IMG/VR virus record: IMGVR_UViG_2609459856_000003 | Coordinates: 1-16,328 of that record | Strand: one strand, 5' to 3' | Length of the DNA: 16,328 nucleotides | Origin: a virus | Lineage: Duplodnaviria > Heunggongvirae > Uroviricota > Caudoviricetes | In this document: positions 1-3,000 of the stretch, piece after piece | How the letters are laid out: the number at the start of each line of letters is the position of its first letter | How positions within the stretch are numbered: the first letter of the stretch is position 1 | Made by a program: the position numbers

Positions 1-3000
1 AAAATTAAAGTTCCTCCGTAAAGATCACTAAAGTCCCAAAAGATACCTTTTGTCCCGTTATGTGTGACGATCCTCGTCATTGTATCTTTAGTACCATCAA
101 TATTTTTTCTGGTATATATGTCACTATAAGCGTTTTCCGTTTCACCAGTCTTATTTGACAAATGCAGCTTACCGCTGAATATAGTTCCAGTTGTTGGCAA
201 TGTTTTTTGATCATAGATTACATTGCAATAACCATTCCATGTTGTTTTATTGTCTACATAAGATTTTGTTGCGTAGCTTCCTTGATCGTTTTTTAATTTG
301 CTAACGTCGGATTTTAGCGTTTTGATGTCTTCAGGAATTACTGTCGATGTAGCCATTTGTCTCCCTCACATCCAGCCACGAAGTTGATGCTCAACAACAA
401 TCGCGTATTTATCGAATATTGACGATTTTTTTGCATCATTAATGATGCGCACGTTTACAAAATATCCGTCTTCCTTAACACATACCGGCTCGCCCTCTTC
501 GGTAAGTTCTCCGGTTTCTTTGTACACGTTACCTATCACGTCAATAAGAATATCATCCTGCATCGACTCATCATCATAATAGCCAGTGCTATCCATAAAG
601 GCCGAAAAATCGGCCCTGTCGGCAAATTTAAGTGTTAAATCTTTCATTTAATACTCTCCCCCATTTGCGCATCAGTTAATTCTTTATGCCAGAGACGAAG
701 ATTTCTCAAATGGCCGAATAGATGACGTGTCCCTGATGTGGCTTGACCTCCTATTCGAATAAAGGTCCGCGTTTTTACGCCCGTCCATTCCGTTTTCATG
801 GTTTTAGTAGCCTCACCGTTAGAAACTACTCGTTTAGTACCATCAGAATAAATATTAAAACCACCAATGAATTTTCGAACATCCGTTCGACCAGTAAACA
901 AACTAGAAACGTAACTACTTGTCGACGCTTTATAAGTTTGCATATAAAGCTGACCGTAATATTTCTCGGTTGTGTTAAAAGCGTATGTGATTGACTCAAT
1001 AGGCGGCACACTAGAAAAATCAAAAATACGCGGTGCTACATTAGGAGGAATATCGCCCCAATTCCTGTTAACCTCGACCAAACAAGTAAGCGGTCTGTTA
1101 TAAATGTTGTTTTCGGTCGGGATCGTAACCATATCACTCGCACGAGTCGCCGCCGTCGTTCCTGATATAATAAAAGATGATACACAAGGCCCATCTTCTA
1201 CTTGTGGGGTGGCCAGATAAATATAGTCACCAGATACGGTTGCCCCTCCCTGCTTAGGTGAATACTGTATCTGAGAGCCTATTTTTAACTCACCATCAAT
1301 TGCCTGAATTGTTGCCTCAGCAAAAATCCATCCTGTAGTTTCATCCTTCCTGACTCGTGCCGTAATTCTACCGGAAGCACCACCTGTCATATTAATTTCA
1401 AGCGTTTGTGTATCAATATACGCATCACCAAGAAAAGTTGTTGCGCTACCGTCATATTTATCAAATCGGATACGCAACCTTACCTGCAGTTCTGTTTTAA
1501 AACGACATGAGGTTGTCACGTATTTATTATCGCCTGAGACATCAACTGACTTTGTTGCAGCAATTGATGCCATATTAATGGCTGAGGTTTGCCCAATCAG
1601 AGAATCGTTACAGACAAACTTTCCATAGGTAAAACCAAAACTATCCGTCCCGGTTTCGGGAACATCCATATTTGACGATCGCCCCCAACTGGCAGGGTTT
1701 TCCGAATTGAGCATGTAGTTTGTTCTTTGCCCCTCAATAAGCAGGCCATCACGTTCAAATCGTGGCTCGTCAATGGCAGCCTCTGTCAGCACACCAGATT
1801 TATTAATATAGGTTGCTTTCGATGCGCGTTTAAACTTTACAACCTTATCGCCAGGCATCGTTATTTCATCATCACCAATAACAATCTTTTTATATGACGG
1901 CGAAAAGCCCGTAATCATATCCAGTGAATCGTTAAACGGTATCCACACATCGGGAAGCGGCTGTAAGACATATTTATACGGCTCTGCTGCCTGGCTTGCG
2001 TACTCCCTGGCTGCGTCTTCGCTTGCTTTAGCTGCCGTCTGGCTTGCTGCCGATGCTTTCGCTGAGTTATCCGCCGCAGTCTCGCTCGCCTTTGCGTTGG
2101 TTTCACTGGTTTTTGCATTCGTTTCGCTGGTCTTCGCTGCCGTCTGGCTGGACTTTGCGTTGGTTTCGCTCGTCTTTGCGGCTGTCTCGCTATTTTTCGC
2201 GTTGGTTTCTGATTTTTTGGCTGCTGTCGCGGAGTTTGCTGATGCAGTCTGTGAGGTCGCTGCCGCCTGTGCACTATTAGCTGCATTCGTTTCTGAGGTT
2301 TTCGCCGCGTTCTTCGATGATGCCGCTGCAGTTTCGGATTTCTTTGCCGCCGCTGCGCTCTGAGAGGCGGCTTCAGCGTTGCGTGCCGCTTCTTCCACCA
2401 TTTCCTCAAAACGACGCAATGCCTCCGGCATGACATCATCTTCCGTCATGGCACCGAGAAAATCATTCAGCGTACCTGGTCTGGAGCCTTCATAGACGGT
2501 AATGGTCCCGGCATGTGAAGGCGGAAAACCTTCAACCAGCAGGGTGACGCTGTACTGGCCATACTCAACATCCATGCTGTAACGCCCGGCTTCATCCGGA
2601 TTTTCAGAGGCCACCGTGTTCACCAGTACCGTGGTGCTGTTACGCTTTGCCTTCAGTTGAATAGTGCAGTTCTGTATTGGTTTTCCCGCACCATCTTTCA
2701 GCACACCTGAGATTTTTACTGCTGCCATATCCACTCCACAAAAAAGCCCGCCTGAACCGGCGGGCTGTCATAACACTGTGTTACCTGGCTAATCAGAATT
2801 TATAACCGACACCCACGATGAAACCGTCAGTGCGCCAGTCACCACTGCCGGAACCTTCATAAGCAACATCAATGGCCACGGATTCGGTCGGGTTAAACTG
2901 CACGCCAGCCCCCCACGCCAGAGACGTGTTGCTGTGGCGACCGTCATCACTTCCGGTCAGCACATCGTGCGTTTTCCCCTTGTTGTCAGTTACGCGGAGA

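What the first reader, a model, noticed from the sequence alone, without database searches (positions are those of the whole stretch)
1..647. AT-rich two-gene cargo distal to the tail fibre, with no recognisable family
Downstream of stf the composition switches to visibly AT-rich DNA carrying two ORFs. One is a 93-aa acidic protein translationally coupled to stf (ATGA overlap). The other has its own strong SD (GAGGGAG) and stays open for 118 codons until it runs off the window. Neither matches the lambda Tfa chaperone as I recall it. In lambdoid prophages this position downstream of the fibre genes is a classic moron and host-range accessory site. A long open frame in AT-rich DNA argues for real coding. 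This is the best candidate in the window for an uncharacterised function (fibre accessory, receptor-binding partner, or lysogenic-conversion or phage-defence cargo), but I cannot assign one from sequence alone.
Basis: partly seen in the sequence, partly recalled or inferred. Interest (0 to 1): 0.6.

Follow-up and report, generated by a model that had tools for sequence, protein, structure and literature searches.

The report
Second tail fibre plus fibre-joint protein
The two "cargo" genes after the prophage side tail fibre gene are the rest of a widespread three-gene fibre cassette: a small conserved fibre-associated protein of unknown role, and a second short tail fibre that is cut off by the end of the contig.

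Summary
Both ORFs are real. The 93-aa acidic ORF (366..647, minus strand) overlaps stf by ATGA. The second ORF (1..356, minus strand) has a GAGGGAG Shine-Dalgarno and stays open for 118 codons.

The "cargo with no recognisable family" reading does not hold.
- The window is a whole draft contig, so the second ORF is truncated by assembly. Its closest full-length relative is identical over the 118 residues. That relative is a 346-aa tail fibre with a C-terminal Peptidase_S74 intramolecular chaperone (PHROG 4563).
- The 93-aa protein belongs to PHROG 1361 (function unknown). It occurs in lambdoid prophages and in strictly virulent T1-like, Dhillonvirus, Queuovirinae, T5-like and rV5-like phages.
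- It is always start/stop-coupled to a fibre gene that ends in a ConA/LamG-like lectin domain. In siphoviruses a fibre with a conserved N-terminal [IV]PxDIxxLK peptide follows 9 nt later.
- No promoter, terminator or defence-family match separates these genes.
- The GC drop starts inside stf at about position 1900, not after it.

Best reading: a bipartite side fibre, with the 93-aa protein as its joint or assembly factor. Adaptor versus chaperone is unresolved. This is an ordinary new member of a known kind, with one small open question.

The parts
1..356 (-). 5' part (118 codons plus 2 nt) of the second, distal tail fibre gene, cut by the contig end. The full-length relatives are 346 aa and carry a C-terminal Peptidase_S74 intramolecular chaperone.
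   Evidence: Translation. It is 100% identical over 118 aa to E. coli E4 WP_001526984.1 (L001:5316-6356). PHROG 4563 E 5e-209 and PF13884 E 5.7e-14 at aa 227-278 of that relative. The window is the whole contig.
282..356 (-). Conserved N-terminal docking peptide of the distal fibre (aa 1-25, MATSTVIPEDIKTLKSDVSKLKNDQ; core motif [IV]PxDIxxLK). The variable region follows from about aa 36.
   Evidence: The motif is present in 90 of 93 downstream fibres; the three exceptions are explained. Mean pairwise distance is 0.23 for aa 1-25 against 0.52 for aa 26-110. Megablast breakpoints fall at 251 and 313.
361..367 (-). Shine-Dalgarno GAGGGAG of the distal fibre gene. It overlaps the TGA stop (368..366) of the 93-aa gene and lies 4 nt before the ATG.
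   Evidence: Read directly from the sequence. A 9-nt gap between the two genes occurs in 86 of 93 loci.
366..647 (-). 93-aa acidic fibre-associated protein (PHROG 1361, function unknown). Proposed joint or assembly factor of the bipartite side fibre.
644..647 (-). ATGA start/stop overlap that couples the 93-aa gene to stf.
   Evidence: The same -1 to +4 nt junction is seen in 95 of 95 loci.
647..1117 (-). C-terminal ConA/LamG-like lectin domain of Stf (about aa 540-696). It ends in the conserved tail IRIGGQ..G.RHLFGH.RN.R.WHK.LTD.Q and is the invariable upstream partner of the 93-aa gene.
   Evidence: PF13385 hits the window's own sequence below its cut-off (E 6e-4) and hits 19 of 20 diverse homologues (best E 8e-10). 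The tail motif is present in 90 of 95 loci, and four of the other five are sequence variants of it; the fifth (L086) is a frameshifted Stf that has lost it. 204 phage records carry this domain against 181 with the 93-aa protein, with matching taxon counts.
1139..1741 (-). Domain of Stf like the GTA head-spike fibre (aa 332-532).
   Evidence: NCBIfam NF048003, 52 bits against a cut-off of 36. A profile hit to the RcGTA head spike fibre, PDB 6TB9, E 3e-4.
644..2734 (-). stf, the proximal side tail fibre (694-696 aa). It has an N-terminal virion anchor (PF08400, aa 5-134), an Ala/Ser/Thr heptad repeat stalk and a variable low-GC C-terminal half.

Best explanation
Positions 1..647 are the distal two genes of a stereotyped three-gene side-tail-fibre host-range cassette. 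They are transcribed with stf as late structural genes.

Shown:
- Stf carries the lambdoid N-terminal anchor and ends in a ConA/LamG-like lectin domain.
- The 93-aa gene is start/stop-coupled to that fibre gene.
- The next gene is a short tail fibre with a conserved N-terminal peptide, a variable middle and a C-terminal S74 intramolecular chaperone. In this window the contig end cuts it.
- The conserved stretch (Stf tail, 93-aa protein, distal-fibre N-terminus) sits between two highly variable receptor-binding modules. The cassette is shared among temperate and virulent coliphages.

Inferred:
- The Stf trimer is the proximal fibre.
- The short fibre trimer docks by its N-terminal peptide at the distal end of Stf. 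After self-cleavage of its chaperone domain, this gives a bipartite fibre with two binding modules: the lectin domain and the distal tip.
- The 93-aa protein acts at the LamG-like end of Stf as the joint or assembly factor. My preferred version is a small adaptor that stays in the fibre and offers the docking surface for the distal fibre. A purely transient chaperone role is nearly as likely.
For: Fibre identity of ORF 1..356:
- 100% identity over 118 aa to a 346-aa protein with PF13884 and PHROG 4563.

Gene context of the 93-aa protein:
- All 96 sources carry a small1 homologue by HMM.
- The upstream fibre ORF ends within -1 to +4 nt of its ATG in 95 of 95 loci.
- The downstream fibre carries [IV]PxDIxxLK in 90 of 93 loci.
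- The same trio occurs in KarlJaspers (Drexlerviridae), VogelGryff and JenP1 (Queuovirinae), and in T5_ev219, IrisVonRoten, SelmaRatti and AKFV33 (T5-like).

Partner domain:
- The LamG domain and the 93-aa protein co-occur: 204 against 181 phage records with the same taxon breakdown. The weak extra hits also carry a divergent small1.

Conserved joint between variable modules:
- Mean pairwise distances are 0.52 (Stf body), 0.26 (Stf tail), 0.21 (small1), 0.23 (fibre-2 N25) and 0.52 (fibre-2 aa 26-110).
- Within the lambdoid pool, small1 covaries with the fibre-2 N-terminus (Mantel rho 0.44, p 0.002). It does not covary with the Stf body or tail (rho 0.06-0.08, not significant).

Other support:
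- Purifying selection, dN/dS 0.32, and a compact confident fold.
- No promoter or terminator between the genes.
- The BASEL paper models the homologous IrisVonRoten locus as a proximal fibre with a C-terminal galectin-like domain plus a distal fibre with an intramolecular chaperone (10.1101/2024.09.12.612763).
Against: - No direct evidence places the 93-aa protein in virions or in contact with either fibre. Co-folding was not possible.
- In rV5-like phages (JeffSchatz) the protein follows a LamG-ended fibre, but no fibre with the docking motif exists in 49 kb of structural genes. So it can function without a distal fibre of this type. That favours a role tied to the LamG fibre itself.
- The covariation with the fibre-2 N-terminus may simply reflect a recombination hotspot at the conserved Stf tail.
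- The 3' part of the distal fibre gene of this particular genome was not seen.
Confidence: 0.7

Rival explanations
1. The 93-aa protein is a dedicated trans-acting folding or assembly chaperone for the LamG-terminated fibre. It would be a functional analogue of lambda Tfa, T4 gp38/gp57A or a cis intramolecular chaperone, and would be absent from the mature virion. The distal fibre would dock directly on Stf.
For: - Natural allele swap in rV5-like phages. rV5 gp41 ends in an S74 intramolecular chaperone and has no small ORF after it. The JeffSchatz allele of the same fibre ends in the LamG domain and is followed by the small protein.
- In those phages the protein is present without any fibre carrying the docking motif.
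- It co-occurs strictly with the LamG tail.
- The translational coupling mirrors the stf-tfa arrangement.
- The BASEL models join proximal and distal fibres without mentioning the small protein.
Against: - Chaperones specific for receptor-binding domains usually co-vary with them. Here the protein stays at least 80% identical across the pool while the LamG body diverges to about 40% or less, and it shows no covariation with it.
- There is no sequence or fold similarity to any known fibre chaperone.
Confidence: 0.3
2. One reading: the two ORFs are horizontally acquired AT-rich cargo (a moron). They would be expressed from the prophage for lysogenic conversion, superinfection exclusion or anti-phage defence.
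For: - GC is low (0.35-0.41) compared with 0.53-0.57 in J, lom and the tail genes.
- The position next to the prophage end is a classic moron site.
- In relatives, a small membrane protein (PHROG 1443) does sit just beyond the second fibre.
Against: - The low-GC block starts inside stf.
- No room or signal for a separate promoter or terminator exists, given the 4-nt overlap and the 9-nt gap.
- The trio is present in obligately lytic phages.
- One ORF is a bona fide fibre.
- The 93-aa protein is acidic and hydrophilic, with no hydrophobic (signal or membrane) segment evident on reading the sequence.
- No PADLOC hit.
Confidence: 0.03
3. The region is decaying. The 1..356 frame would be a pseudogene remnant, and the 93-aa ORF would be a non-functional leftover of a defective prophage.
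For: - The frame runs off the window.
- Some related prophages carry frameshifted or rearranged copies (L081, L086).
Against: - The truncation is a contig end.
- The 118 residues are identical to an intact 346-aa gene.
- The 93-aa family is under purifying selection.
- stf, lom, J and the other tail ORFs in the window are intact.
Confidence: 0.05

Closest known systems
Lateral tail fibre locus of T5-like phage IrisVonRoten (Bas32): bas32_0022 proximal fibre, bas32_0023 small protein, bas32_0024 T-shaped distal fibre with intramolecular chaperone (Humolli et al., BASEL completion paper)
   Same: - Same three-gene order.
- The proximal fibre ends in a homologous galectin/LamG-like domain (41.6% identity over 148 residues of the 150-aa query).
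- The small protein is a family member (HMM E 2e-35).
- The distal fibre has the same N-terminal motif and an intramolecular chaperone.
   Different: - The virion anchor differs: a T5 Ltf N-terminus with the LtfC collar there, lambdoid PF08400 here.
- The distal fibre is 574 aa and T-shaped there, against about 346 aa here.
- The paper does not discuss the small protein, and it numbers the proximal fibre inconsistently as Gp22 or Gp23.
Branched L-shaped tail fibres LtfA/LtfB of T5-like phages DT57C and DT571/2 (Golomidova 2016; Ayala 2023)
   Same: Both are two-protein lateral fibres. The second fibre is attached through the first rather than to the tail, and both carry receptor specificity. 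S74 intramolecular chaperone domains are present.
   Different: - There is no small gene between ltfA and ltfB.
- Both Ltf proteins end in an intramolecular chaperone and there is no LamG-like terminal domain.
- The attachment was shown genetically there. Here it is only inferred.
Lambda Stf-Tfa (and Mu/P2 fibre plus Caudo_TAP chaperone)
   Same: Stf has the same N-terminal anchor domain, and the locus sits at the same position after J and lom. A small gene follows the fibre gene.
   Different: - No PF02413/Tfa homology.
- The Stf C-terminus is a lectin-like domain rather than the Tfa-dependent tip.
- An extra fibre gene follows.
T4 long tail fibre gp34-gp35-gp36-gp37, with small joint proteins and chaperones gp38/gp57A
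   Same: The concept is shared: a segmented fibre whose proximal and distal parts are joined by small dedicated proteins and assembled with dedicated chaperones.
   Different: No sequence or fold similarity was detected. The stoichiometry and location of the 93-aa protein are unknown. This comparison rests on general knowledge of T4.
Endosialidase-type C-terminal intramolecular chaperone fibres (K1F endoNF, T5 pb1; Pfam PF13884)
   Same: The full-length relative of ORF 1..356 has the domain from profile position 1 at residue 227, starting with SDRDLK.
   Different: The fibre is short (a mature part of about 226 aa). It has an N-terminus adapted to dock on another fibre rather than on a tail or baseplate.

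Membership tests
Tail fibre with C-terminal intramolecular chaperone (Peptidase_S74, PF13884), for ORF 1..356 | C-terminal PF13884 domain above the Pfam gathering score | tested here: met
   52.6 bits against a cut-off of 22, at aa 227-278 of the 346-aa E. coli E4 protein, which is 100% identical over the window's 118 residues. The domain itself lies beyond the contig end, so it was not seen in this genome.
Tail fibre with C-terminal intramolecular chaperone (Peptidase_S74, PF13884), for ORF 1..356 | Ser...Lys cleavage/catalytic motif (SDxxxK) at the start of the chaperone domain | tested here: met
   HSDRDLKDNI is present in the E4, Tritos, PhiR46_1, JenP1 and ESCO3 orthologues. The related fibres have SDSRLK, SDSRVK and SSIRYK. 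It was read from the sequence; cleavage itself was not tested.
Tail fibre with C-terminal intramolecular chaperone (Peptidase_S74, PF13884), for ORF 1..356 | Trimerisation and autoproteolytic release of the chaperone domain | not testable with these tools
   Needs protein expression and SDS-PAGE or mass spectrometry.
PHROG 4563 tail fibre protein | Full-length profile match | tested here: met
   E 5.3e-209, residues 1-346 on profile positions 1-346.
PHROG 1361 (unknown function), for the 93-aa protein | Full-length profile match | tested here: met
   E 1e-45, residues 1-93 on profile positions 1-92 of 92.
Tfa/Caudo_TAP tail fibre assembly proteins (PF02413) | Sequence match to the family profile | tested here: not met
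   There is no Pfam or NCBIfam hit for the 93-aa protein at E up to 0.1. There is no PDB sequence hit better than E 0.6.
Known fibre chaperone or adaptor folds (Tfa, gp38, gp57A, gp35/36) | Structural similarity of the AF2 model to a solved example | tested here: not met
Lambdoid moron (independent lysogenic-conversion cargo) | Own promoter and terminator, separable from the late operon | tested here: not met
   The gene junctions are a 4-nt overlap and a 9-nt gap. There is no minus-strand promoter-like or terminator-like site in 1..700, and counts are at chance level. By contrast, lom is bracketed by terminator-like hairpins.
Lambdoid moron (independent lysogenic-conversion cargo) | Restricted to temperate phages and dispensable for virion function | tested here: not met
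   The family is present in virulent Drexlerviridae, Queuovirinae, Markadamsvirinae and Vequintavirinae.
Anti-phage defence systems (PADLOC-DB) | Match to any defence protein model | tested here: not met
   0 families for either protein.
Bipartite or branched lateral tail fibre (proximal fibre plus distal fibre) | Proximal fibre with a virion-anchoring N-terminus | tested here: met
   PF08400, E 5.9e-67, at aa 5-134 of Stf.
Bipartite or branched lateral tail fibre (proximal fibre plus distal fibre) | Distal fibre with a conserved N-terminus and variable receptor-binding part, encoded directly downstream | tested here: met
   90 of 93 loci carry the motif. Distances are 0.23 for the N-terminal 25 aa against 0.52 for aa 26-110.
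Bipartite or branched lateral tail fibre (proximal fibre plus distal fibre) | Physical attachment of the distal fibre to the proximal fibre | not testable with these tools
Only the AF-Multimer model published for the Bas32 homologue speaks to this.

The most novel reading that the evidence does not exclude
The 93-aa protein (PHROG 1361) would be a previously unrecognised universal joint protein. It would cap the LamG-like end of proximal fibres and present a standard socket for the [IV]PxDIxxLK N-terminus of interchangeable distal fibres. That would explain how one plug-and-play host-range cassette moves between lambdoid, T1-like, 9g-like and T5-like siphoviruses, and, with a modified C-terminus, rV5-like myoviruses.
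Probability: 0.35. Interest if true: 0.5.

Novelty: new member of a known kind. Interest (0 to 1): 0.3.

Why it matters
For annotation, the two "hypothetical" or "cargo" ORFs should be read as part of the side-fibre host-range module. They are not lysogenic-conversion or defence genes.

For phage engineering, people who swap Stf or lateral-fibre receptor-binding parts should note three things:
- The LamG-ended fibres always travel with this small gene.
- The conserved Stf tail, the small protein and the distal-fibre N-terminus form the natural recombination and assembly joint.
- Leaving the small gene out of a chimera may give non-functional fibres.

The function of the small protein is a modest but well-posed open question. 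Available phages (BASEL Bas06, Bas25, Bas32) make it directly testable.

Tried and rejected
- Fused-chain AlphaFold of the LamG domain, a linker, the 93-aa protein, a linker and the fibre-2 N-terminus, with a paired alignment of 16 phages (alignment). No co-fold evidence was obtained.
- The scan of genome contigs with the family alignment failed for lack of a conserved 7-10 column stretch.
- Virion proteomics from the literature was not usable. The AKFV33 paper identified only four gel bands, including the proximal fibre but no small proteins. rV5 itself carries the chaperone-ended allele of the fibre without the small gene, so its proteome is uninformative.
- The Eligo lambda-Stf engineering preprint and the DT57C papers do not mention this protein.
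- Extension of the window was impossible, because the window is a complete contig. The best complete-genome matches are 97% identical, not the same strain.
- Residue-level covariation between the C-terminus of the small protein and the fibre-2 N-terminus was considered and dropped. The two are within 20 nt of each other and overlap the ribosome-binding site, so linkage would confound it.
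Full report
WHAT IS IN THE SEQUENCE

The window carries the tail end of a lambdoid prophage on the minus strand:
- J lies at 3460..6855, lom at 2793..3392 and stf at 644..2734. The lambda-like tail genes lie further up.
- A 93-aa ORF lies at 366..647. Its ATG overlaps the stf stop as ATGA.
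- A second ORF starts at 356, preceded by GAGGGAG at 361..367. It stays open for 118 codons to base 1.
- The 93-aa protein is acidic (pI 4.3).

So the ORFs are as described. The composition statement needs correcting. GC is 0.53 in the first third of stf and falls to 0.42 in the rest of stf. It is 0.41 in the 93-aa gene and 0.35 in the last ORF. The low-GC block therefore starts inside stf near position 1900, where the conserved N-terminal anchor and repeat stalk give way to the variable C-terminal part.

The window is the whole 16,328-bp contig JNMN01000040.1 of assembly GCA_000700365.1. The open frame at base 1 is an assembly break, not a biological truncation.

THE TRUNCATED ORF IS A SECOND TAIL FIBRE

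- Megablast of 1..700 against complete E. coli genomes finds 122 genomes covering at least 80% of the query, at up to 97% identity. They annotate the ORF as "tail fiber domain-containing protein".
- In E. coli E4 the gene is 346 aa and is 100% identical to the window over the 118 residues available.
- It matches PHROG 4563 (tail fibre) end to end (E 5e-209).
- It has a Pfam Peptidase_S74 intramolecular chaperone domain at residues 227-278 (52.6 bits against a cut-off of 22), beginning with SDRDLK.

This is a known kind of protein.

THE 93-AA PROTEIN IS A CONSERVED FIBRE-ASSOCIATED PROTEIN OF UNKNOWN ROLE

It has no Pfam, NCBIfam, PADLOC or PDB sequence match. It does match PHROG 1361 over its full length (E 1e-45).

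The family is small but real:
- There are 48 cluster representatives among 1.84 billion proteins.
- 181 phage records match by tblastn.
- Median dN/dS is 0.32.
- The AlphaFold2 model is confident (pLDDT 86, pTM 0.71) and shows a small alpha/beta sandwich.

The hosts of this gene are not only lambdoid prophages. They include obligately virulent Drexlerviridae, Dhillonvirus, Queuovirinae, T5-like Markadamsvirinae and rV5-like Vequintavirinae.

THE GENE CONTEXT IS STEREOTYPED

I parsed 96 sources: the window, 80 viral contigs and 15 annotated phage or genome loci.
- All 96 carry the small gene by HMM.
- In 95 of 95 loci with upstream sequence, a long fibre ORF ends within -1 to +4 nt of its ATG.
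- In 86 of 93 loci, the next ORF starts 9 nt after its stop.
- In 90 of 93 loci, that ORF begins with the peptide [IV]PxDIxxLK.
- The three exceptions are one point variant, one rearranged prophage copy and the rV5-like phage.

The upstream fibres all end in ...IRIGGQ..G.RHLFGH.RN.R.WHK.LTD.Q.
- The last 200 residues match Pfam Laminin_G_3 (ConA-like lectin) in 19 of 20 diverse members (best E 8e-10).
- Those residues are preceded by a segment like the Rhodobacter GTA head-spike fibre (NCBIfam NF048003; PDB 6TB9).
- tblastn with this terminal domain finds 204 phage records, with the same taxon breakdown as the 181 that carry the small protein. The weaker extra hits (SelmaRatti, AKFV33) also carry a divergent copy of the small gene.

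The small protein and the LamG-ended fibre are therefore inseparable.

A CONSERVED JOINT BETWEEN TWO VARIABLE MODULES

Over 67 unique gene trios the mean pairwise distances are:

| Segment | Mean pairwise distance |
|---|---|
| Stf lectin body | 0.52 |
| Stf last 40 residues | 0.26 |
| Small protein | 0.21 |
| Distal fibre residues 1-25 | 0.23 |
| Distal fibre residues 26-110 | 0.52 |

Megablast breakpoints in phage genomes fall at window positions 251 and 313. That is just inside the distal-fibre N-terminus.

Within the lambdoid pool, variation in the small protein does not follow the Stf body or tail (Mantel rho 0.06-0.08, not significant). It does follow the distal-fibre N-terminus (rho 0.44, p 0.002).

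This pattern is what a structural joint would give. A recombination hotspot at the conserved Stf tail could also produce it.

THE RV5-LIKE PHAGES GIVE A COUNTER-WEIGHT

- In rV5 the variable fibre gp41 ends in an S74 chaperone domain and has no small gene after it (Table S3 of PMC3606486).
- In JeffSchatz the same fibre ends in the LamG-like domain and is followed by a 110-aa family member.
- No fibre with the docking motif exists in 49 kb of JeffSchatz structural genes.

So the small protein's primary tie is to the LamG-ended fibre. A chaperone-type role, replacing a cis chaperone domain, is a serious rival.

MECHANISM

Shown:
- The fibre identity of both large genes.
- The coupling and co-occurrence of the three genes.
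- The absence of independent expression signals.
- The absence of any defence or Tfa homology.

Inferred:
- Stf is the proximal fibre, anchored by PF08400.
- The short fibre docks by its conserved N-terminus at the distal end of Stf and sheds its chaperone domain.
- The result is a bipartite fibre with a lectin domain and a distal tip.
- The small protein works at that joint.

I prefer a persistent adaptor (about 0.35-0.4) over a transient chaperone (about 0.3). The remainder covers other fibre-related roles.

The BASEL completion paper models the homologous T5-like locus (IrisVonRoten Gp22/Gp24) as a proximal fibre with a C-terminal galectin-like domain carrying a distal fibre. It does not discuss the small protein between them. 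DT57C LtfA/LtfB branched fibres are analogous but have neither the LamG end nor the small gene.

VERDICT

The finding is real as sequence but ordinary in kind. It is the distal part of a known type of multi-component side fibre cassette, not cargo.

The low GC is explained by the cassette, from mid-stf onward, being a module exchanged with virulent coliphages. The only open point is the role of the PHROG 1361 protein.

In related prophages, a more moron-like gene lies just beyond the second fibre and outside this window. It is a 95-97-aa protein with hydrophobic helices (PHROG 1443).

Noticed in passing
window 1 (contig end): The window is the complete contig JNMN01000040.1 (16,328 bp) of GCA_000700365.1. 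The fibre gene at 1..356 is cut by the assembly. A likely cause is that similar fibre genes occur in several prophages of the genome; related genomes have up to 5 matching places.
   Followed up: partly
window 2745..2766 and 3422..3441 (minus strand): Two strong terminator-like hairpins bracket lom. One lies in the J/lom gap. The other (8-bp stem, 7 G-C pairs, T-run) lies in the lom/stf gap, just before the stf start. lom therefore looks like the real moron cassette of this region.
   Followed up: no
window 2072..2209: A 21-nt (7-aa, SETNAKT-like) tandem array in the Ala/Ser/Thr-rich stalk of stf. It has a very strong AT skew (-0.66) in 1951..2400.
   Followed up: no
L001:4986-5273 (E. coli E4). 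The same gene occurs in PhiR46_1, Tritos, PhiR49_1, PhiR11_1, IdasGreatGrand, PhiR47_1 and PhiR55_1.: A conserved 95-97-aa protein with hydrophobic N- and C-terminal segments (PHROG 1443, unknown function, no PADLOC hit). In lambdoid prophages it follows the second fibre, just before dinI-like/int or the par genes. No such gene follows the distal fibre in the annotated virulent-phage loci. It is a better candidate for prophage cargo or superinfection exclusion, and it lies beyond the window.
   Followed up: partly
L091/L097 (JeffSchatz), compared with rV5 Table S3: Natural allele swap in rV5-like phages. The variable fibre ends either in an S74 intramolecular chaperone with no small gene (rV5 gp41), or in a LamG-like domain followed by a 110-aa PHROG 1361 member that has an insertion and a different C-terminus.
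   Followed up: yes
Phage records (MG065653, MG065635, MG065655, OR847733 and others): Records named "Campylobacter phage" and "Listeria phage" carry rV5-like or T5-like coliphage fibre modules. They are probably mislabelled or contaminant sequences.
   Followed up: no
L081 and L086 (IMG/VR prophage contigs): Some prophage copies of the cassette are decayed. L081 has a rearranged 5' end of the distal fibre and L086 has a frameshifted Stf that has lost the LamG tail. The small gene is still intact in both.
   Followed up: partly
window 644..2734: ORF listing gives a GTG start at 2734 (696 aa). The public gene call starts two codons later at the ATG (694 aa).
   Followed up: no
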